Source: Eledone cirrhosa
Taxonomy: Eukaryota
Reading direction: 5' to 3'
Length of the DNA: 64,000 nt
NCBI GenBank assembly: GCA_964016885.1
Contig: OZ024741.1
Location: forward strand, 50,530,001 to 50,594,000
Below the pieces are notes generated by a model. It was not told where the DNA came from, did not search any database, and saw only the letters and a list, made by a program, of their open reading frames with translations. This document shows, one piece after another, positions 1,372 through 61,790 of this stretch (position 1 is the first letter of the stretch; each line of letters begins with the position of its first letter). The position numbers were made by a program, and so were the translations under genes.

Positions 1372-1712
1372 TCATCATCATCATTTCATTTTACGTCTGC
1401 TTTTTCCCTGCTTGCAAGGGTGGGACGGGAACTGATTCTGGCTTGATTTCTACAGATGGATGCTCTTCCTAACACCAACCTCATTTACAGTGAGTGCTGG
1501 GTGCTTTTTTGCCGTGGCACCTCCACGGCCACTTTGTAGTGGAATGATATGGACCCCAGTCCCTATCATCTCATTTCTACAGCTGAGTAAACTGGAGCAA
1601 TGTGAAATAAAGTGTCTTGCTCAAGGAAACAACACATCACCCGGTCTGAGAATTGAACTCACAACCTTTCGATTGCAAGCCCAATGCTCTAACCATTAAG
1701 CCATGTGCCTCC
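1372..1712 (-). mobile_element. tRNA-derived CORE-SINE with RTE-derived tail
   Basis: A/B boxes (tggcttaatgg, gagttcaattct), MIR-CORE-like ccttgagcaagacacttt...ctcagctgtagaaatgag, RTE tail and (ATG)n. Confidence 0.85.
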
Positions 1713-2075: not shown

Positions 2076-3797
2076 ACAGAGTGGACTACACTAAAAATAG
2101 AGTAAACTCTACTAAAGACAGAGTGGACCCCACTAAAGATAGAGTGGACTCCACTAAAGACAGAGTGGACCCCACTAAAGACAGAGTGGACTACACTAAA
2201 AATAGAGTGAACTCTACTAAAGACAGAGTGGACCCCACTAAAGATAGAGTGAACTCCACTAAAGACAGAGTGAACTCTACTAAAGACAGAGTGGACTCTA
2301 CTAAAGACAGAGTGGACTCTACTAAAGACAGAGTGGACTCTACTAAAGACAGAGTGGACTCTACTAAAGACAGAGTGGACTCCACTAAAGACAGAGTGGA
2401 CCCCACTAAAGACAGAGTGAACTACACTAAAGACAGAGTGAACTACACTAAAAATAGAGTGAACTCCACTAAAGACAGAGTGGACTCTACTAAAGACAGA
2501 GTGGACTCTACTAAAGACAGAGTGGACTCCACTAAAGACAGAGTGGACTCCACTAAAGACAGAGTGGACTACACTAAAAATAGAGTGAACTCTACTAAAG
2601 ACAGAGTGGACTCTACTAAAGACAGAGTGGACTACACTAAAGACAGAGTGGACTCTACTAAAGACAGAGTGGACTCCACTAAAGACAGAGTGGACTCCAC
2701 TAAAAATAGAGTGAACTCTACTAAAGACAGAGTGGACTCTACTAAAGACAGAGTGGACTACACTAAAGACAGAGTGGACTACACTAAAGACAGAGTGGAC
2801 TCTACTAAAGACAGAGTGGACTCCACTAAAGACAGAGTGGACTCCACTAAAGACAGAGTGGACTACACTAAAAATAGAGTGAACTCTACTAAAGACAGAG
2901 TGGACTCTACTAAAGACAGAGTGGACTACACTAAAGACAGAGTGGACTACACTAAAGACAGAGTGGACTCTACTAAAGACAGAGTGGACTACACTAAAGA
3001 CAGAGTGGACTCTACTAAAGACAGAGTGGACTCCACTAAAGACAGAGTGGACTCCACTAAAGACAGAGTGGACTACACTAAAAATAGAGTGAACTCTACT
3101 AAAGACAGAGTGGACTCTACTAAAGACAGAGTGGACTCTACTAAAGACAGAGTGGACTCCACTAAAGACAGAGTGGACTCCACTAAAGACAGAGTGGACC
3201 CCACTAAAGACAGAGTGGACTACACTAAAAATAGAGTGAACTCTACTAAAGACAGAGTGGACCCCACTAAAGACAGAGTGGACTACACTAAAAATAGAGT
3301 GAACTCTACTAAAGACAGAGTGGACTACACTAAAGACAGAGTGGACTCCACTAAAGACAGAGTGGACTCCACTAAAGACAGAGTGGACTCTACTAAAGAC
3401 AGAGTGGACTACACTAAAGACAGAGTGGACTACACTAAAGACAGAGTGGACTACACTAAAGACAGAGTGGACTACACTAAAGACAGAGTGGACCCCACTA
3501 AAGACAGAGTGGACTCCACTAAAGACAGAGTGGACTCTACTAAAGACAGAGTGGACTACACTAAAGACAGAGTGGACTCTACTAAAGACAGAGTGGACTA
3601 CACTAAAAATAGAGTGAACTCTACTAAAGACAGAGTGGACCCCACTAAAGACAGAGTGGACTCCACTAAAGACAGAGTGGACTCCACTAAAGAAACAGTG
3701 GACTACACTAACAGTAGAGTGGACTCCACTAAAGACAGAGTGAATCCCACTAAAGACAGAGTGGACTACACTAAAAATAGAGTGGACTACACTAAAT
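2076..3797. repeat. 21-bp minisatellite, about 82 units
   Basis: Unit ACTAAAGACAGAGTGGACTCT with interspersed variants; produces the 572-codon repetitive ORF. Confidence 0.97.
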
Positions 3798-7651: not shown

Positions 7652-10071
7652 AAACAAGGGAGTTCCTAAAAAATAATTTACTAGAGGCGACGGATGAGGT
7701 CTGTGGCTGGAGTAAGACCTCAAGCAGGAGGAGAGTGACTTGGTGGTAGAACAATAAGGTAGATGAAGCAGTTAAGGCCAAGAGACGGGCATGGAAAGAA
7801 TGGAAGAACAGGGGAGCAGGGTACATTACATAGAGACCAAGAGCGAAGCTAGGCGACAAGTATACTTAGCTAGGAGGGAAGCAGAGGATAGAAAATTCAA
7901 GCATGTTTTGCAACGTGAGGACCAGAAACAGGAGGTGTTCAAGATTGCGAGGCAGTGTGTCAGAGATAGTTGTGATGTCATTGGAGAGAAGTGTATCCGG
8001 AATGATAAAGGTGAGCTTTCCCTCACAAGTGCTGAGAAGAAAGATGCATGGAAGAGTCATTATGATAGATTACTAAATGAGGAGAATGCATGGGAAGAAG
8101 AGACCCTACCCCAAGTAGACCCTATAGAGGGGCCAGCAGTACAAGTCAGCAGCAATGTAATAAGTAAGGCAATCAAAGATACGAAGATGGGGAAGGCAAC
8201 CAGTCCATCGGGTATAGCTGCCGAGATGCTGAAGGCATCTGGGTCTGTAGGTCACACTATAACCACACGTATTGTTAACCAGGTAATACTAGAAGGTGTC
8301 ATACCAAAAGATTGGTGCAGTAGCATCATTGTCAACTGCTACAAAGGTAAAGGTGATGCACTAGATAGAGGAAACTATAGAGGTATAAAGTTGATGGGCC
8401 AGGTCATGAAAGTAACAGAAAGAGTTACAGCACAGTTGATTAGGGACCGGGTGAAAATAGACGAGATGCAATTTGGTTTGTACCAGGAAGAGGCACCACT
8501 GATGCCCTCTTCCTTGTGAGGCAGTTACAGGAAAAGTACCTAGCTAAAAGTAAGCCACTCTACTTGGCATTTGTCGACCTTGAGAAAGCCTTTGACAGAG
8601 TTCCACGTGCTGTAATCTGGTGGGCTCTTAGAAAACTAGGAGTAGATGAATGGCTTGTGAAAGCGGTACAAGCCATGTATAGGGGAGCAGTCAGCAAAGT
8701 TAGGATTAGCAATGAGTATAGCGAGGAATTTAGCGTACAGGTTGGGGTCCACCAGGGCTCTGTTCTTAGCCCCCTCCTGTTCATCATAGTCCTGCAGGCA
8801 ATAACGATGGCAATAGACTGGATGCCCATGGGAACTCCTGTATGCTGATGACCTCGCACTCATAGCTGAATCTATGGTAGAACTAGAGAATAAATTCCAA
8901 ACTTGGAAGCAGGGACTAGAAAGAAAGGGTCTCAAAGTCAACATGACAAAGACTAAGGTCCTTGTAAGTAGACGAGAACACAGAACCCAGATCCCCTCAG
9001 GGAAATGGCCTTGCTCAGTATGTAGGAAAGGTGTAGGTAGGAACTCCATTCTTTCCCCCAAATGCAAACAATGGGTACACAAGAGATGTAGCGGGATCTC
9101 AGGAAGCTTAATTAAGAATGTAGGCTTCACATGCACCAGCTGTGCTGGGACAGCAAGCAGCAAACAGCCACAGGAAACAAGTACCACCAATCTCTGGGAG
9201 GGCTCTGTAGAAACAGTAGACAGCTTCTGCTACCTAGGTGACCGAATTAGCAGCGGAGGTGGGTGTTCAGAAAGTACAATAACTAGGGTAAGAACGAGAT
9301 GGAAGAAGTTTAGGGAACTACTACCACTGTTAGCTGCAAAAGGCTTCTCCCTCAGAATGAAAAGCAGACTGTATGATGCGTGTATCCAAACAGCAATGTT
9401 GCATGGTAGTGAGACCTGGGCACTGAAGGTGGAAGACTTACGTAGATTAGAGAGAAACGAAGCCTGCATGCTCCGATGGATGTGTAACAGTAATATACGT
9501 GAACGACAAAGCATAAATGAATTGAGAGAGAGACTGAGCATAAGAGGAATCAAATGCTGTGTGCAGGAGAGGCGGTTGCGTTGGTATGGACATGTGATGC
9601 GTATGAAGGATGACAGCTGCATAAAAAGGTGCAGAGCACTAGAAGACCTGGGATGAGGTGATAAAAGCCGACCTTACCCAATTACACCTCTCAAAGGCAA
9701 TGACACACGACCGTGACCTCTGGCGTCACGCAGTAAAACAGAGTACCCGACCTCCCATGGGTACAAGCTGTAGCATATAGACAATATGCCCCCACACCCC
9801 CCACCGCAAGGTGGTCGTGGAGGTGCCACGGCAAAAAAGCACCCAACCCACACTGTAAAGTGGACGTGTAGGCGCCACGAAAAAGCACCCAGCACTCACT
9901 GTAAATGAGGTTGGTGTTAGGAAGGGCATCCAGCTGTAGAAATCAAGCCAAATCAGTTCCTGTATGAGCAAGGCATGGTCAGCCGACCAGACACTGCCCA
10001 CAACAGGACAACCCATCTAACCCATGCTAGCGTGGAAGAACAGACGTAAAACGGTGATGATGATGATGATG
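7652..10071 (+). mobile_element. RTE LINE family A, 5'-truncated, frameshifted
   Basis: ORFs 7791-8519, 8516-8848 and 8874-9656 give RT (FVDLEKAFDRV, GVHQGSVLSP, YADD) and the C-terminal domain; long 3' UTR ending in (GAT)n. Confidence 0.92.
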
Positions 10072-32200: not shown

Positions 32201-32356
32201 TATACATATATATATATTGTGAAAACGTCAACAAGAAAATAGTGATCTCTCAGAACTAATAGTTATTATGATTCATATATATAACTGCAGGATGTGGTTG
32301 TAAATCGTATCTTCAGTTGTAATATTGTGTGCACAAATCATAATAAATATGTACAA

Positions 32357-32577
32357 GTGGTCATGTAGGTGTCACAACAAAAAGCACCGAGCCCACACAC
32401 TGTAAAATGGTCATGTAGGTGTCATGATAAAAAGCACCCAGCCCACACTGTAAAGTGGTTGTGTAGGTGTTACGACAAAAAGCACCCAGCCCACACTGTA
32501 AAGTAGTTGTGTAAGTGTCACGGCAAAAAGCACCTAGCTCATACTGTAAAGTGGTCGTGTAGGTGTCACGACAAAAA
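32357..32577. repeat. Tandem repeat of about 46 bp from the RTE 3' UTR motif, about 5 units
   Basis: gtggtcatgtaggtgtcacaacaaaaagcacccagcccacactgtaaa units. Confidence 0.85.
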
Positions 32578-32835
32578 GGTGATGATGATAGGTATATTAG
32601 TGAAACCATATCAGCCAAGCCAGGGGTTATATTAGCCAAGATGCATGAAGAATGTTACCCTACATTTGCCATATTGAATGAAGAGAAAGAAACTAGATCA
32701 GAGCTAACCAAAGTATACAATAGTGGGCTTGACATAGGTAAAGGGAGGATAGATCCAAGAAGTTGATAGGTAGGTAGATGCGCAGAAATATGGCTGATGA
32801 GAGAGAATTTAACAGAGAACAGGAATGTAACCTAC

Positions 32836-32961
32836 CTCAAATTCTGCATGGAGATCTTCGTCTGTATATGTCTTTGGAACAAGGACAAATAGCCGGACTA
32901 GTTTCTCCTTTTGTCGAAGATCTCGTACAGAACCATCTTGTTTTGAACTGGCAATGAACAC
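32836..32961 (-). CDS. RBM45: RBM45 coding exon 3 (end of RRM1, start of RRM2)
   Basis: VFIASSKQDGSVRDLRQKEKLVRLFVLVPKTYTDEDLHAEFE, cf. human VFIAQSRSSGS...RIFVMIPKSYTEEDL; ag and gtaggt boundaries, phase 0-0. Confidence 0.9.
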
Positions 32962-33115
32962 CTTCAAAATATAGGGATTTAGTAATTATTCAAATATATA
33001 CTGTCTGGAATATAGATCCTAATAAATACTCTCCCAAATATACATCTCATATACATATATATATATATAAAATAAAATAAATAAGTCAAATATTTAAAAT
33101 TTGGCTTCGTTTATT

Positions 33116-33170
33116 ACTGCTATATATATTTCGGTGACAGCCATCTTTGGCTGTGACCTCTTCAGGCAGT
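33116..33170 (-). ncRNA. Type I hammerhead ribozyme motif (mirror copy, sense in RBM45 pre-mRNA)
   Basis: Exact reverse complement of 33411-33465. Confidence 0.8.
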
Positions 33171-33410
33171 CCGAATTGGTGTGGTAGAGACGGGTACACA
33201 TGTTGTTGAGGTGTTTAACTCCGTCAATACTCTGATATGCCCAGTTCCTGGTTGGGTTGTTATTTCTCTGAGGAACTGGAATCATATGATCATATGATTC
33301 CAGTTCCTTAGAGAAATAACAACACAACAAGGAGCTGGACATATCGATGTATTGACGGAGTAAAACACACTTCAACAACATGTGTACCTGTCTTTCCCAC
33401 ACCAATTTGG

Positions 33411-33465
33411 ACTGCCTGAAGAGGTCACAGCCAAAGATGGCTGTCACCGAAATATATATAGCAGT
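33411..33465 (+). ncRNA. Type I hammerhead ribozyme motif
   Basis: ACUGC-CUGAAGA-GGUCACAGCCA(AAGA)UGGCUGUCACC-GAAA-UAUAUA-UA|GCAGU: helix I ACUGC/GCAGU, 11-bp helix II with one mismatch, minimal palindromic helix III. Confidence 0.8.
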
Positions 33466-33623
33466 AATAAACGAAGCCAAATTTTAAATATTTGACTTAT
33501 TTATTTTATTTTACATTACTCCGGAGCAACCAAACCAACCTGCATACTTCGTCGAGTGCTCCAATCTGCATACTGAGGTGTCGGTAAACAACCAACATAT
33601 ACTCAAAAATATATATATATATA

Positions 33624-33776
33624 TATTTGAAAAAAGAGGAAGAATGACATCATCGGTGGTTGATGTTCTTTAATAATTCAAATCTTTACGATCAATAATG
33701 ACTTATTGTAAAGATTTGAATTGTTAGAGAACATCAACCACAAGTGAAGTCATTCTTCCCCTCGTTTCAAATTTAT
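33624..33776. repeat. Imperfect inverted repeat (arms of about 70 bp) between (TA)n tracts
   Basis: gaagaatgac...ttcaaatctttacgat pairs with attgtaaagatttgaa...gtcattcttc. Confidence 0.7.
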
Positions 33777-34919
33777 CTTCATTTTCTAATATATATATAT
33801 ATCCTTTATGTTGTATGGTTTAATTAATAGGTAGCTGGGTTTGTGATTCAGTCATTCTGATGAACAGACCATGATGCAATAAGCAAAAGCATTCAACATT
33901 ATGTGTATCTTAGATCATAGATGTGGTGTCCCGTGTTTGGTACAGGAACAGAATTAAATACTGCAATGGAAATATAAGAAGGCCAGATTCCAATAACTTC
34001 CTGTATTGTTGCTTAATTATATAAAATATTTATGTCATCAGACCATGAAGCAAAACAATCGGTCACATCAGATGGCAAAAACATAAAAGATTTAATTAAG
34101 TAATCCTTAATATAAACAAACGATATGGAGGCAGTCTGGCTTGCCATGCTATCACTAATACGTCATCGCCTCCGTACACTCATACAATTGATAATCCATT
34201 GCATTGTGGGTTAGTAGGTATAGCCAAAGGGGCTTTGTATGTTTGACATCCTTGGTTCTATCCCCAGTCTACTCTCAGTGATACTCTACTCATCTATTGA
34301 ACCATTCATATTTTTGTTTTTTCCATCCTTCTTGGCCCCTCCACATTCATCATCTATGTCTCACTCATGGTATTTCTTATACATGCAACATATACCTTTC
34401 CCTTCAGTTTAGAAACACTCCCCTCCTCATTAACATACATTTGGTTCCCTGAACTTTTCCCATGCACAACTTATTCTAGATACTATCCACTGAATATGTC
34501 CCCAAGATAAAGTGTTTTCACACCATTCCCAAGATCCTCCTCAACATCCTCTCCATCTGTAGCTCCTTCCATAAACATGTTACACACAAATCTAGCTACC
34601 ACATTATTTAATAATCCCTTCACACCATTACATTTTAATGAAAGGAGCAAGTGATATATATAATCACATATTAATGTAGTAAATAGTTATATTCTTGACA
34701 TCTAATTCTGTCTGGAGTCATTTAATTGAAACTGGCTTCTAGTTTACAACTAACTTTTCAAATATATGCCAAATATGGATTTAATTTAATAGATACATTT
34801 ATAGTAGAATCTGCTAATTTTTTTTATGAAATAAATCTGGCAACCATAATTAGATAATGAGAGAGAGAGAGAAAGTAGGGATTAGAAGTGTAATTAATGT
34901 AAAGTAATAATTAACTAAC

Positions 34920-35017
34920 CTTGAGAAGTTTGGGATGACCAGGAATACATTTGCCATTCATCTTTTCCATTGCTAAGAAAGCAGCTGAGGTCTTGTTAAA
35001 TTTGATATACACAACAC
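34920..35017 (-). CDS. RBM45: RBM45 coding exon 2 (RRM1 RNP1)
   Basis: Acceptor tttcag, (G)VVYIKFNKTSAAFLAMEKMNGKCIPGHPKLLK, donor gttagt; phase fits exon 1. Not in the ORF track, translated by hand. Confidence 0.9.
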
Positions 35018-40834: not shown

Positions 40835-40985
40835 CTTTTTCCTCGTTCGTTTGTTTGTCTTTAACGATCCAAATATCCTGAATGGACCCAAATTTACTAA
40901 AACATTCATCATATTCCTCTTTAGTTATTCCTTTACCGGCAATAACGAAGAGACGGCTGTTTGTAGGATAGCGATGGTTAGCCAT
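40835..40985 (-). CDS. RBM45: RBM45 coding exon 1 (ATG; N-terminal part of RRM1)
   Basis: MANHRYPTNSRLFVIAGKGITKEEYDECFSKFGSIQDIWIVKDKQTNEEK(G) resembles the vertebrate RBM45 N-terminus (PPNSRIF...FGDIQDIWVVRDK); phase-1 donor G|GTTCGT at 40834. Confidence 0.9.
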
Positions 40986-41699
40986 CTGTTTTCTAGTAAT
41001 ATACCTGCTTTAGGAGTGTATAACAGTGTTTGACATATATGTGTGTGTGTGTATATATATATTATAATATATAGAGAAGGAGAACAGTAAACACCATCAA
41101 ATATTAGTCAGTAAAAATTACTTCCCTTAGTAAATGAAAACCAATCTCATAGAACAGACGAGAATCTCGTTAATTAGTTATTCCACGAGACTTGTTTAAA
41201 CTCAATTTCGTAACTTTTTCTTTGACCATCCCTCCCCATTCTAAGGAATCGTAGTTTCCAAACTTGTTAAAACTCACGGCTGACTTTATACCTCGATTAG
41301 AAAATATTTATACATATTAATATAGTAGAAACTAGAAATAGAGATATTTAAAAATACAGAAAAAATATTTGTACTTCTTTCTTTGGTAAATAAATGGAGA
41401 AAGATGTGCTTGGTATTTTTTTTGACAATGTTTTCATTCTTAGTACGTTAATTCTTTTTTAATAATAAAAAATTTAATATTTAGTCAAACATACAACAAA
41501 ATAAAGTATTTGAAAGGACTATAAATGCCATAAATAGGAGGGAAAGAGCAAGGACTATTTGGCAACAAGAAAGAAAGGGGGGAAAAGAAGGTTGTGACAG
41601 ACTCTACACCTAGGTTAGAGCATTGTTTCGGCTTTGCCCTGCAGACAAATGGTCAGTGACATCCTTGCAACAGCCATGCCACCTTGCGGGGCTTCTTCC

Positions 41700-48354: not shown

Positions 48355-48985
48355 TGTGTAAGGTGTTCGTACTGGTTCCACAACAAAAATCCATCAGTAC
48401 ACCCTGTAAGGTGGTTGTGTTGGTACCATGACAAAAATGCACCCAGTCCACCCTTTAAGGTGATTGTACTGGTATCATGACAAAAATTCACCCAGTCCAC
48501 ACAGTAAAGTGGTCATATAGGTGTCATGACAAAAAGCACCCAGCCCACACTGTAAAGTGGTTGTGTAGGTATCATACAAAAAGCACCCAGCAGACACAGT
48601 AAAGTGGTCGTGTAGGTGTTGTGACAAAAAGCACCCAGCTGACACAATAAAAGTGGTTGTGAAGATGTCACAACAAAAAGCACCCAGCCCACACCATGTG
48701 GTTGGCATTAGAAAGGGTATCCAGCCATACAAAACCAAAGCAAAAACAGATCTGCATGAACAAGACAGGTCACCTGACCTGGTTAGCCTCATAACATGAC
48801 AACCTGTCTAACCTATGCTAGCATGGAAAATAGATGTTAAATGGTTTAACGTCCATTTTTCATGCCAGCAATGGTTAGACGGGTTGTTCTATTTGAGACA
48901 AGTTGGATCAGGTGACTGTGTCTTGCTCATACAGATCTATTTCTGGTTTGGTTTCTACGGCTGGATGCCCTTCCTAATGCCAGCC
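48355..48985. repeat. RTE-UTR tandem array (unit about 46 bp, about 7 units) followed by two tail-to-tail RTE 3' ends
   Basis: Same unit as 32357-32577; junction gcatggaaaatagatgttaaatggtttaacgtccatttttcatgc near 48845. Confidence 0.8.
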
Positions 48986-54732: not shown

Positions 54733-55752
54733 GTAGCGGGATCTCAGGAAGCTTAATTAAGAATGTAGGCTTCACATGCAGCAGCTGTGCTGAGACAGCA
54801 AGCAGCAAACAGCCACAGGAAACAAGTACCACCAATCTCTGGGAGGGCTCTGTAGAAACAGTAGACAGCTTCTGCTACCTAGGTGACCGAATTAGCAGCG
54901 GAGGTGGGTGTTCAGAAAGTACAATAACTAGGGTAAGAACGGGATGGAAGAAGTTTAGGGAACTACTACCACTGCTAGCTGCAAAAGGCTTCTCCCTCAA
55001 AATGAAAGGCAGACTGTATGATGCGTGTATCCGAACAGCGATGTTGCATGGTAGAGAGACCTGGGCGCTGAAGGTGGAAGACTTACGTAGATTAGAGAGA
55101 AACGAAGCCTGCATGCTCCGATGGATGTGTAATAGTAATATACGCGAACGACAAAGCATAAATGAATTGAGAGAGAGACTGAGCATAAGAGGAATCAAAT
55201 GCTGTGTGCAGGAGAGGTGGTTGCGTTGGTATGGACATGTGATGCGTATGAAGGATGACAGCTGCATAAAAAGGTGCAGAGCACTAGAAGTCGATGGAAA
55301 CCGTGGAGTGGGGAGACCCAAGATGACCTGGGATGAGGTGATAAAAGCTGACCTTGCCCAATTGCACCTCTCAAAGGCGATGACACATGACCGTGACCTC
55401 TGGCGTCACGCAGTAATACAGAGTACCTGACCTCCCATGAGTACAAGCTGAAGCATATAGACAATATGCCCCCACACCCCTCACTGCAAGGTGGTCGTGG
55501 AGGTGCCACGGCAAAAAAGCACCCAGCCCACACTGTAAAGTGGACGTGTAGGTGTCACGAAAAAGCACCCAGCACTCACTGTAAATGAGGTTGGTGTTAG
55601 GAAGGGCATCCAGCTGTAGAAATCAAGCCAAATCAGTTCCTGTATGAGCAAGGCATGGTCAGCCGACCAGACACTGCCCACAACAGGACAACCCGTCTAA
55701 CCCATGCTAGCATGGAAGAACGGACGTAAAACGGTGATGATGATGATGATGA
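54733..55752 (+). mobile_element. RTE family A 3' fragment nested in the family C element
   Basis: Nearly identical to 9088-10071; (GAT)n tail. Confidence 0.9.
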
Positions 55753-56184: not shown

Positions 56185-57252
56185 TTTACAGCATGGACTG
56201 GGTGATTTTATTTGTGCCACCAGCACTAGAGAGGCTGTCTTACTGGACTCAGGGGCCCTCTCCACCCCTCCATTTTACAGCATGTACTGGGTGATTTTAT
56301 TTGTGCCACCAGCACTAGAGAGGTTGTCTTACTGGACTCAGGGGCCCGCTCCACCCCTCCATTCTACAGTATGGGCTGGGTGATTTTATTTGTGCCACCA
56401 GCACTAGAGAGGCTGTCTTACTGAACTCAGGGGCCCTCTCCACCCCTCCATTTTACAGCATGTACTGGGTGATTTTATTTGTGCCACCAGCACTAGAGAG
56501 GTTGTCTTACTGGACTCAGGGGCCCGCTCCACCCCTCCATTCTACAGTATGGGCTGGGTGATTTTATTTGTGCCACCAGCACTAGAGAGGCTGTCTTACT
56601 GGACTTGGGGACTTCTCCACTCCACCCCTCCATTTTACAGTATGGACTGGGTGATTTTATTTGTGCCACCAGCACTAGAGAGGCTGTCTTACTGGACTCA
56701 GGGGCCCTCTCCACCCCTCCATTTTACAGCATGGACTGGGTGATTTTATTTGTGCCACCAGCACTAGAGAGGTTGTCTTACTGGACTCAGGGGCCCGCTC
56801 CACCCCTCCATTTTACAGTATGGGCTGGGTGATTTTATTTGTGCCACCAGCACTAAAGAGGCTGTCTTACTGGACTCAGGGGCTCTCTCCACCCCTCCAT
56901 TTTACAGCATGGACTGGGTGATTTTATTTGTGCCACCAGCACTAGAGAGGCTGTCTTACTGGACTCAGGGGCCCGCTCCACCCCTCCATTTTACAGAATG
57001 GACTGGGTGATTTTATTTGTGCCACCAGCACTAGACAGGTTGTCTTACTGGACTCAGGGGCCCGCTCCACCCCTCCATTCTACAGTATGGGCTGGGTGAT
57101 TTTATTTGTGCCACCAGCACTAGAGAGGCTGTCTTACTGGACTCAGGGGCCCTCTCCACCCCTCCATTTTACAGCATGTACTGGGTGATTTTCTTTGTGC
57201 CACCAGCACTAAGGAAGTTGTCATACTGGACTTAGGGGACTTCTCCACCCCA
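56185..57252. repeat. 89-bp tandem array, 12 units, inside the 5' UTR of the family C RTE
   Basis: Unit starts at 56192, 56281, 56370, 56459, 56548, 56641, 56730, 56819, 56908, 56997, 57086 and 57175. Confidence 0.95.
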
Positions 57253-59529: not shown

Positions 59530-61790
59530 AAGGACCAAAAACGTGAGGTGTTCAGGATTGCTAGACAATGTGTCAAGGAGAACCGTGATATTGTCGGTTA
59601 GAAGTGTGTCCGTAATGATGATGGTGTACTGGCCATCACTGACGCTGATAAGAAGGTAGCTTGGAAGTGTCACTACGAAAGCTACTAAATGAGGAGAATA
59701 AATGGGAGAAAGACAGCCTCCCCCACATCGATCCAATAGAGGGACCAGCAGTGCAAGTTGAAGGTAGTATAAGTAAGGCAATCAAAGATATGAAAACGGG
59801 CAAGGCGGCTGGGCCTTCGGAAATAGTTGCTGAAATGCTGAAAGCATCTGGAACGGTGGGACACACTATGGTCACCCAGATAGTAAACCAAGTTATACAG
59901 AATGGGGTTGTACCAAAGGACTGGCGTAGCAGCATCATCATTAACTGCTACAAGGGTAAAGGAGACGCCCTAGATAGGGGAAACTATAGAGGCATTAAAT
60001 TAATTGACCAGGTCATGAAAGTCACAGAAAAAGTAATAGCGCAACTAATCAGAGAGCGAATTAATCTAGATGAAATACAGTTCGGGTTTGTGTCAGGTAA
60101 AAGTACCACAGACGCTCTTTTCATTGTACGACAACTACAGGAGAAGTACCTAGCTAAAAGTAAACCCCTCTACTTAGCTTTTGTAGACCTGGAGAAAGCC
60201 TTTGACAGAGTCCCCCACTCCATTATCTGGTAGGCTCTTAGAAAACTAGGTGTAGATGAATGGCTTGTGAGAGCTATACAAGCCATGTATAAAGAAACAG
60301 TTAGCAAGGTTAGAATTAACAACGAATATAGTGAAGAGTTTAGCGTAAAAGTTGGTGTTCATCAGGGCTCCGTCCTTAGCCTCCTCCTATTTATTATCGC
60401 CCTCCAAGCTATAACGGAGGAGTTCAAGACCGGCTGCCCATGGGAACTTCTATACGCAGATGATCTAACGCTCATAGCCGAATCAATGGTTGAACTAGAG
60501 AAGAAATTCCAAACATGGAAGCATGGCTTAGAATCAAAAGTCCTTAAAGTTAACTTGTCTAAGACTAAAGTCCTAATATGTAGGAAAGAGAATAGGGCAC
60601 TGGTCCCATCTGGGAAATCGCCATGCTCAGTGTGTAGGAAAGGAGTAGGCAGAAACTCCATTTTATGTCCCAAATGTAAAGTCTGGGTGCATAAAAGATG
60701 TAGTGGGATCACAGGTAAGCTAACTAAGAATATAGATTTTATATGTGGCCGGTGCTCTGGTGCAATAAGTAGCAGCAAGTGCCCACAGAATACTAGCTCA
60801 TTCCATTGCCCAGATGGTTCTATAGAAATAGTGGACACCTTCCGTTACCTGGGTGACAAAATCAGCAGTGGTGGAGGGTGCTCTGAAAGTACTGTAGCTA
60901 GAGTCCGAACGGGATGGAAAAAGTTCAGAGAGCTTATACCACTATTGGCCGTTAAAGGTTTCTCTCTAAAAATGAAAGGCAGGCTGTATGATGCCTGCAT
61001 ACAAACAGCGATGTTACATGGCAGTGAGACATGGGCCTTGTGTGCAAAGGATCTACGCAGACTGGAGAGGAACGAAGCTTGCATGCTCCGCTGGATGTGT
61101 AATATACGCGAACGGCAAAGCATAAATGAACTAAGTGAGAAATTAGGAATAAGAGGGATCAGATGCTGTTTACTCGAGAGAAGACTATGTTGGTATGGTC
61201 ACGTGATGCGCATGAAAGATGACAGCTGTATAAAAAAGAGCAGGGCGATCAAAATAGACGGTAGCTACAGAGTAGGCAGACCCAGAAAAACCTGGGACGA
61301 CTTGCTAAAATCCGACCTCACACACTTACACCTCTCCAAGACAATGTCACTAGACCGAGATCTTTGGTGCCATGCAGTAATACAGAAGACCCACCTTGCC
61401 TAAGTACAAAGCGAAACCTACAGTCAGTAGGCACCTCTTAACCAAAATACACCCCCGTCCCAACCCTACCCCCACCACCATCTACACCACCCCTTTCGAT
61501 GTAAAACTATGTTGGTACCACAACATCCAGTCCTAAATAAATGAGGTCGTGTAGGTGTCACGACAAAAAAACACACAGTCCACGCTGTAATGTGGCCGTG
61601 TAGGTAACACGGTAAAAACCTCCCAGTCCACACTGTAAACGTCGTTGGTGTTAGGAAGGGCATCCAGCCATAGAAAACCCGCCAGACAGTCCTGAGCAAG
61701 ACAACCAATCTTGCCTCAAGTGGGACAATTCCCGTCCAGACCCATGCTAGCATGGAAAATGGACGTTAAACGATGATGATGATGATGATG
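59530..61790 (+). mobile_element. RTE family B, 5'-truncated, one in-frame stop at 60230
   Basis: ORFs 59661-60233 and 60267-61403 (YADD, PHD-like finger); (GAT)n tail. Confidence 0.92.

What the first reader, a model, noticed from the sequence alone, without database searches (positions are those of the whole stretch)
33068..33610. Self-masking palindromic hammerhead ribozyme cassette in RBM45 intron 2
Seen: a spacer-less palindrome of about 444 bp whose arms each encode a complete type I hammerhead core (CUGAAGA...GAAA, helix I ACUGC/GCAGU, long helix II, minimal UAUAUA helix III), followed by AATAAA and embedded in (TA)n. The outer ~100 bp holding the ribozymes are perfectly complementary. 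Inner transition mismatches are mostly G.U wobbles on the plus strand (6 G.U against 1 A.C by hand count). Known: minimal, dimer-dependent hammerheads and inverted pLTRs characterise Penelope-like elements and retrozymes. Inference: any transcript carries one sense ribozyme and its perfect antisense, transcribed first. The RBM45 pre-mRNA would hold a cleavage site about 155 nt before the exon 3 acceptor that is kept off by the hairpin, which is also a good ADAR/Dicer substrate.
Basis: partly seen in the sequence, partly recalled or inferred. Interest (0 to 1): 0.8.

Follow-up and report, generated by a model that had tools for sequence, protein, structure and literature searches.

The report
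Penelope retrotransposon palindrome with hammerhead ribozymes
This hairpin-shaped DNA in an RBM45 intron is one of many head-to-head scraps of a known kind of jumping gene (a Penelope-like retrotransposon); its two ribozyme motifs are likely passengers rather than a switch for the host gene, though sister copies hint that the ribozyme sometimes cuts in living cells.

Summary
The palindrome (33068-33513) and both type I hammerhead motifs are real, and they lie between RBM45 coding exons 2 and 3 (minus strand). It is not a unique cassette. It is a 5'-truncated, head-to-head insertion of a high-copy Penelope-like element of the Hydra clade, with a 95-nt tail on one arm and (TA)n flanks. I collected 88 such palindromes; 71 have a tail on one arm with the other arm ending at the shorter site. 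Larger copies with the same layout carry an intact 892-aa RT/GIY-YIG ORF. Masking of the ribozyme is predicted (+92 kcal/mol to fold it) but follows from the head-to-head geometry. The wobble argument fails: the arm mismatches are mostly subfamily differences, other copies show 197 G.U against 234 A.C, and on the pre-mRNA strand the ratio reverses. New points: 5' ends pile up at a likely transcription start, which would explain the palindrome's size. A minority of palindromes (16 of 38 in a genome-wide pattern) stop at the ribozyme cut site, a suggestive fossil of in-vivo cleavage; a control region has a hotspot of similar height. No RNA data were available. Verdict: new member of a known kind.

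The parts
33068..33289 (-). Inverted pLTR arm without tail; subfamily B; reads sense on the RBM45 pre-mRNA strand
   Evidence: (96-99% to the best other copies)
33116..33170 (-). Type I minimal hammerhead motif, sense on the pre-mRNA; predicted cut between 33121 and 33120, 159 nt before exon 3
33110..33115 (-). AATAAA after the ribozyme (left arm)
   Evidence: sequence
33287..33292 (.). Centre of the palindrome; likely transcription start of the element RNA on each arm (33292 on +, 33287 on -), initiator-like TCA+1TAT
   Evidence: 5' ends pile up here; G excess at -1; start inferred, not measured
33290..33396 (+). Inner part of the sense arm, subfamily A haplotype (mosaic patch; breakpoint between 33396 and about 33465)
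   Evidence: exact 126-nt contig 33275-33400 in run X4
33409..33513 (+). Outer part of the sense arm, identical to the left arm; subfamily B markers from about 33465 on
33411..33465 (+). Type I minimal hammerhead motif; predicted cut between 33460 and 33461
33466..33471 (+). AATAAA after the ribozyme (right arm)
   Evidence: sequence
33514..33608 (+). 95-nt one-sided tail; in ORF-bearing copies it runs on into the ORF start, about 55-60 nt before the ATG
33049..33067 (.). Left (TA)n target flank
33610..33626 (.). Right (TA)n target flank
32836..32961 (-). RBM45 coding exon 3 (host context)
34920..35017 (-). RBM45 coding exon 2 (host context)

Best explanation
The feature is a short, head-to-head insertion of a high-copy Hydra-clade Penelope-like retrotransposon into a (TA)n tract of an RBM45 intron, likely made when two cDNAs were primed on opposite DNA strands, and its hammerheads are likely silenced passengers. 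Shown: family membership, two fixed 3' ends 95 nt apart, the one-sided tail, (TA)n flanks, linkage of the same pLTR to an RT/GIY-YIG ORF, and a pile-up of 5' ends at one site. Inferred (about 0.65): the element protein nicks both strands and starts reverse transcription internally at two sites (matching 33513 and 33608), as shown in vitro for the anole element PAc. Both cDNAs run to the 5' end of a capped RNA that begins at the palindrome's centre and are joined there, giving about 2 x 222 bp plus one tail. The templates here were uncut, because both arms span the cut site. In RBM45 read-through RNA the antisense arm is made first and is predicted to lock the ribozyme and its AAUAAA in a duplex, which likely makes the insertion tolerable; that is a by-product of geometry. 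The inner right arm was likely replaced by, or copied from, a second subfamily (ectopic gene conversion or template switch; not resolved).
For: Family: 2588 first-look candidates, all 40 scored matched, the 39 other loci at 89-95%. 3' ends of 145 aligned copies: 62 at q220-231, 77 at q317-321, 6 elsewhere (q = position from 33290). Of 88 head-to-head palindromes, 71 have a tail on one arm with the other ending near q227, 4 have a tail plus a shorter arm, 3 have two tails, 10 have none. Intact 892-aa ORF inside the same layout in L082 and L084, the latter a 7.7-kb palindrome. Hydra motifs RMRWK, ADKT, CxCx5C, CKLC and CRH present, no CxxC between GIY and YIG (against PMC8557442 section 11). Atlas neighbours carry GIY-YIG, HTH_animal and RVT_1 in part of their members. 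5' ends at q1-3 in 15 of 30 and 12 of 30 loci (the two sets share a few loci), 9 per position against 0.13 upstream. Arms share a subfamily in all 87 other palindromes. Ribozyme conserved among lineages: 2 of 55 variable columns against 34 of 140, p=0.0004. A dimer fold with an 8-bp intermolecular helix III is favoured, -44.6 vs -37.4 kcal/mol. Literature: PMC8557442 (inverted copy, tail, (TA)n), PMC11167929 (two internal RT starts flank the tail; both strands extended).
Against: The transcription start is inferred; the self-complementary TCATATGA at the centre could itself attract fold-back or microhomology joins. The G excess at -1 is weak overall (32 of 100 listed rows, p=0.04-0.09) and strong only after dropping direct (TA)n joins and mutated read-through copies (31 of 61; by-eye count); partner microhomology explains some of them. 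The intact ORFs belong to a sister subfamily whose pLTR is 84-86% identical to the window's arm; ORF-linked copies with closer pLTRs that I examined were broken. Pfam gave no significant hit for the ORF. No tree was built. No compensatory base-pair changes were seen among 281 ribozyme copies. The tail (95 nt) is longer than the 30-40 bp described. Palindromes were retrieved with queries centred on q1-q21, so their centres are not an unbiased sample.
Confidence: 0.85

Rival explanations
1. Same element, but the inverted arm arises by fold-back self-priming of one nucleic acid strand, as proposed in PMC3846280, not by two priming events.
For: Arms share one haplotype in 87 of 87 other palindromes and share 1.3 rare alleles per locus on average. 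Many centres overlap by 1-8 nt, some at the self-complementary TCATATGA.
Against: A fold-back copy would have to stop at a fixed site 95 nt short of where the first strand began in 71 of 88 cases. PMC11167929 shows two start sites bounding the tail and extension of both strands. The window's arms differ in subfamily over the inner part, which needs a later conversion under fold-back.
Confidence: 0.2
2. A host-selected switch: the hairpin keeps a ribozyme off in RBM45 pre-mRNA, and unmasking (editing, helicase) cuts the transcript.
For: Ribozyme sense on the pre-mRNA, 159 nt from the acceptor; 0 mismatches in the outer 105 bp; intact core.
Against: Young copy, 98-99% like the closest dispersed copies. 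9 of 87 other palindromes also have no outer mismatch (several are short), and 221 of 281 copies have an intact core. No G.U bias. +92 kcal/mol barrier. Metazoan minimal hammerheads cleaved poorly and not as monomers in PMC4209133.
Confidence: 0.03
3. A non-LTR retrozyme or a MITE-like DNA hairpin element.
For: Non-coding, small, type I hammerhead; long inverted repeat.
Against: No tandem units (one search lists no array here). Ends are asymmetric, centres vary between loci, and the sequence is continuous with an RT ORF in longer copies.
Confidence: 0.03
4. Fold-back sequencing or assembly artefact.
For: Spacer-less palindromes can arise this way.
Against: The arms differ at 14 sites plus an indel, mostly by alleles that segregate in the family. 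The one-sided tail recurs genome-wide. Run X4, from another study, holds an exact 126-nt contig over 33275-33400, but at depth 2 and with only 15 letters left of the centre, too few to count as bridging.
Confidence: 0.01

Closest known systems
Hydra clade of EN+ Penelope-like elements (PMC8557442), including Hydra-1_Obim of Octopus bimaculoides in its supplement
   Same: C-terminal GIY-YIG, RWK and DKT motifs, CxCx5C linker, no CCHH, CxxC and CxH motifs, hammerhead in the 3' repeat, (TA)n targets, inverted 5' copy plus one-sided tail
   Different: A different family from Hydra-1_Obim (2507 bp, 'no pLTR', different hammerhead and protein sequence as read). Here the ORF is 892 aa with long low-complexity inserts, the 3' UTR is about 1.3-1.4 kb, the tail is 95 nt, and helix III is a UA palindrome rather than a 4-bp stem.
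PAc, the Poseidon element of Anolis (PMC11167929)
   Same: Two fixed 3' ends bounding a tail, AT-rich targets, hammerhead in the pLTR
   Different: Other clade. The PAc ORF starts inside the hammerhead and its RT start lies 111-118 nt into the ORF; here the tail ends about 55-60 nt before the ATG. That paper found no RNA-seq ends at the cut site; here some genomic copies end there.
Minimal hammerheads of metazoan PLEs (PMC4209133)
   Same: Short helix I, long helix II, small palindromic helix III, predicted dimer; pairs on opposite strands 100-700 bp apart
   Different: No unpaired base at the 5' start of helix II; a nearly fixed C.C mismatch inside helix II instead.
Animal non-LTR retrozymes (bioRxiv 10.64898/2026.07.22.740005)
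   Same: Non-coding, pLTR-related, type I hammerhead
   Different: Retrozymes are head-to-tail tandem arrays; this is a head-to-head pair with a tail.

Membership tests
Penelope-like element (EN+) | pLTR linked to one ORF with RT and C-terminal GIY-YIG | tested here: met
   Met in related loci L082 and L084 (892 aa; YRDD, LYIG); the window copy has no ORF. Pfam gave no significant hit; the Atlas gave GIY-YIG neighbours.
Penelope-like element (EN+) | Inverted 5'-truncated copy with a tail on one end only | tested here: met
   Window, and 71 of 88 palindromes; the tail is 95 nt, longer than the described 30-40 bp
Penelope-like element (EN+) | Hammerhead motif within the pLTR | tested here: met
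Hydra clade | RWK motif and DKT in place of DKG | tested here: met
   RMRWK and ADKTNN in L082 and L084 against PMC8557442 section 11
Hydra clade | CxCx5C linker; no CCHH; CxxC and CxH around the E and N residues | tested here: met
   CNCRNPESC; one Cys between the GIY-like and YIG parts; CKLC and CRH
Hydra clade | Insertion into (TA)n | tested here: met
   window flanks and the 3' flanks shown
Hydra clade | Phylogenetic placement of the RT | not tested
   No tree built; published Hydra proteins were read in the supplement and compared by eye only
Hydra clade | Generally short (<3 kb) | tested here: not met
   Full unit about 4.1-4.2 kb in L082; the paper gives this as a tendency, not a definition
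Type I hammerhead ribozyme | CUGANGA, GAAA and UH core with helices I-III | tested here: met
   helix III forms well only in the dimer fold. No Rfam hammerhead hit.
Type I hammerhead ribozyme | Compensatory covariation in the helices | tested here: inconclusive
   Pairs nearly invariant in 281 ungapped copies; only a one-sided G-C to G-U change in 32. The region is conserved among lineages, p=0.0004.
Type I hammerhead ribozyme | Self-cleavage | not testable with these tools
   Only indirect genomic end-point data
Non-LTR retrozyme | Head-to-tail tandem units each with a hammerhead | tested here: not met

The most novel reading that the evidence does not exclude
The genome's many Hydra palindromes are a fossil record of the PLE cycle: they map the RNA's capped start and two RT start sites, and a class that stops at the hammerhead's scissile bond shows that a Penelope-like element's ribozyme cuts in vivo and that the cut RNA is still reverse-transcribed and inserted. 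Intact ORFs in the same genome make this testable.
Probability: 0.5. Interest if true: 0.6.

Novelty: new member of a known kind. Interest (0 to 1): 0.32.

Why it matters
The locus itself is ordinary transposon debris, and inverted pLTRs with hammerheads are described. The family is of more use. PMC8557442 calls hammerhead function in EN+ PLEs unclear and the origin of inverted structures unresolved, and PMC11167929 found no RNA ends at the cut site. A genome with many dated palindromes, a likely start site, a class ending at the cut site and intact ORFs gives a direct way to test both questions. My three searches combining Penelope, hammerhead or ribozyme, and cleavage or octopus terms listed no paper with such genomic end-point evidence in title or abstract start; PMC5850863 could not be read. 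The hairpins may also be a source of intronic double-stranded RNA; this was not tested.

Tried and rejected
Rfam: no hammerhead hit; only hairpin-shaped miRNA-type matches below gathering score. Pfam on ORF pieces and on the full ORF: nothing significant. Homolog search with the RBM45 exon: none at E<=0.001; the PDB sequence search identified it instead. Homolog search with an RT piece: 3 unnamed proteins at 38-46% identity. Neptune or Nematis placement was considered and dropped in favour of Hydra because of the CxCx5C linker and the missing CCHH. Wobble selection or an ADAR imprint on the arm mismatches: rejected. A mosaic A/B master lineage: no closer relative among the 39 other loci scored, and no A-inner/B-outer arm among the 87 other palindromes. 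A recombination hotspot at the cut site: cannot be judged, because no diagnostic marker resolves q108-q175. Sequencing runs: no RNA holder listed, so expression, editing and cleavage were not examined. The laid stretch did not include the outer right arm or the right flank, so an empty allele could not be seen. Summed contig depth in X1 is 13 on the unique flank and about 1e6 on the ribozyme core; the tool warns this is no copy number. Earlier findings: none. PMC5850863 not held. Supplements of the bioRxiv preprint were not seen.

Full report
1. Observation. The palindrome runs 33068-33513, with its centre between 33289 and 33290 and no spacer. It folds at -386 kcal/mol, z -46.7. The outer 105 bp pair perfectly; the inner part has 14 mismatches and a 2-nt indel: 6 G.U, 2 A.C and 6 others on the plus strand. 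A scan of all 64 kb found two hammerhead motifs, one per arm and on opposite strands. A 95-nt tail (33514-33608) follows the right arm only, and (TA)n lies on both sides. The next exon on the minus strand matches RBM45, and two coding exons lie upstream. The host is probably an octopus; this rests on my recall of its repeat types and on no call. Below, q means position counted from 33290.

2. It is a dispersed family. The right arm plus tail gave 2588 first-look candidates; all 40 scored matched, the 39 other loci at 89-95%. In 13 of the 30 loci cut out (window included) an inverted arm ending at q220-228 lies upstream. Among 145 aligned copies the 3' ends fall at two sites: 62 near q227 and 77 near q319, with 6 elsewhere. 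Searches across the centre returned palindromic matches on both strands for the loci scored. From all loci fetched by then I built 88 head-to-head pairs: 71 have a tail on one arm with the other ending near q227, 4 a tail plus a shorter arm, 3 two tails, and 10 none.

3. The parent is a Hydra-clade Penelope-like element. Longer copies run upstream through a 3' UTR into a GIY-YIG-type frame. The tail runs directly into the ORF start in L056 and L061. L082 and L084 hold intact 892-aa ORFs inside the same layout as the window, and L084 is a 7.7-kb palindrome of two elements. The protein has RMRWK, ADKT, YRDD, CxCx5C, CKLC and CRH, and lacks the CCHH cysteine pair; these are the Hydra features in PMC8557442 section 11. 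The supplement of that paper lists Hydra-1_Obim, which is a different family. The intact ORFs belong to a sister subfamily (pLTR 84-86% to the window). Pfam found nothing significant, and no tree was made.

4. The arm mismatches are mostly subfamily differences. At all 14 sites the right-arm allele occurs in other copies; at 13 it is in at least 12 of 100, and at one in 3 of 100. The left arm is subfamily B (1-3 differences from near B copies over q21-110). The inner right arm is subfamily A (1-4 from near A copies), and the outer right arm equals the left arm. None of the 87 other palindromes has 5 or more such polymorphic differences; the window has 8. In the others G.U and A.C mismatches number 197 and 234, and mismatch rates are 5.5% inside and 5.3% over the ribozyme half. 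So neither wobble bias nor extra pairing over the ribozyme is a family trait. The perfect outer stem fits a young B/B insertion with a foreign inner patch. Gene conversion and template switch cannot be told apart.

5. The ribozyme. As a monomer it folds helices I and II with helix III open (-18.7 kcal/mol). Two copies form a double hammerhead with an 8-bp shared helix III (-44.6 against -37.4). Forcing the fold inside the palindrome on the pre-mRNA strand costs 92 kcal/mol. The motif is conserved among lineages, 2 of 55 variable columns against 34 of 140 around it (p=0.0004), which points to selection on the element. No compensatory changes were seen in 281 copies, and 221 keep an intact core. 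PMC4209133 reports no monomer cleavage and low dimer cleavage for such motifs, and notes pairs on opposite strands. PMC11167929 reports protein-assisted cleavage that was not needed for insertion in vitro.

6. Why the palindrome has this size (inferred). 5' ends sit at q1-3 in 15 of 30 and 12 of 30 loci from two searches that share a few loci, 9 per position against 0.13 upstream. The site reads TCA+1TAT, like an initiator (consensus recalled). Genome-wide, 226 exact arms lack the templated C at q2; of the 100 listed, 32 have G there, 53 T and 15 A by eye. This is p=0.04-0.09 overall, and 31 of 61 after dropping about 33 direct (TA)n joins and 6 mutated read-through copies. A copied cap would give such a G, but partner microhomology explains some. 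The best model is internal priming at two sites, run-off at a capped 5' end, and joining of the two cDNAs.

7. Possible fossil of cleavage. A genome-wide pattern for palindromes centred just 5' of q176 gave 40 rows, or 38 loci after merging one double hit and one adjacent duplicate. By eye, the longer arm stops at the cut site in 16 loci (within one base, or behind a TA microhomology), probably in 2 more, passes it in 11, ends 3' of it in 7, and is unclear in 2. The 16 show 15 different junctions, in subfamily types with and without the 8-nt insertion. In a sample with free 5' ends, 2 of 30 loci have an arm that starts there. The control at q127 gave 52 loci; 50 were listed and 24 belong to this family. 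Only 1 of 24 stops at the adjacent GC (p=0.001 against 16 of 38), so GC microhomology alone does not explain the peak. However, 8 of 24 stop in one 3-nt bin, 4 of them with one identical junction, and that peak is not significantly lower (p=0.6). The evidence is therefore suggestive only.

8. Host effect. In read-through RBM45 RNA the antisense arm comes first, so the ribozyme and AAUAAA are predicted to be masked. An RNA starting at the centre would not be masked: helix I pairing is predicted at about 0.2 and helix II at 0.65-1.0, apart from the C.C mismatch. No RNA run was listed, so none of this was tested. Nothing suggests host selection.

9. Papers seen. PMC8557442: passages, section 11 and supplement rows. 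PMC4209133 and PMC11167929: parts 1-2 of 4 of the text. bioRxiv 10.64898/2026.07.22.740005: part 1 of 5 and passages. PMC3846280: passages. All others: search listings only.

10. Verdict. Observation confirmed; interpretation partly supported. New member of a known kind; interest 0.32, carried mostly by what the family's end points may show about PLE mechanism.

Noticed in passing
window 33621-33790: A second, unrelated hairpin (72-nt arms, 85% complementary) in the same (TA)n tract. It belongs to another dispersed family (237 candidates); copies L182 and L188 carry a one-sided extension, so it is likely another Penelope-type inverted end.
   Followed up: partly
G000 rows; L084:1346; L006 upstream: A second hammerhead family sharing the CTGAAGAGGTCAC start but with a different helix I and a shorter helix II also forms head-to-head palindromes (26 of the 50 loci listed). 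Further hammerhead-like motifs appeared.
   Followed up: partly
L082:1919-4594; L084; L085: A young subfamily with open 890-aa class frames and near-identical copies, so the family may still be mobile. The ORF has two long low-complexity inserts after the RT.
   Followed up: partly
L055:201-1724 (-); L034:2110-2913 (-); L055:2644-3459 (-): Other Penelope-like ORFs (one with a Neptune-like linker, one a second Hydra-like family) sit beside these insertions, so several PLE families share (TA)n targets.
   Followed up: no
L002 (G000:C5:61325990): A second possible mosaic arm, with an A-like inner part and a C-type outer part, and a breakpoint again between q107 and q175.
   Followed up: no
C5:58213510, C14:33219920, C962:13540: Three palindromes share one junction whose longer arm ends at the base of helix II, a possible structure-induced RT stop.
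   Followed up: no
window 32350-32578, 48357-48694, 55478-55585, 61540-61638, 9811-9905: Recurrent 46-49-bp tandem units of a dispersed SINE-like repeat.
   Followed up: no
window 2076-3796 and 56185-57251: Long minisatellites: 21 bp x 82 and 89 bp x 11.9.
   Followed up: no
window 1646-1703 (-): Partial tRNA-like match (Rfam RF00005, 31 bits), likely the head of a tRNA-derived SINE.
   Followed up: no
window 40985-40986 (-): The RBM45 ATG is directly preceded by AG, so a non-coding upstream exon may exist and would change the intron number.
   Followed up: no
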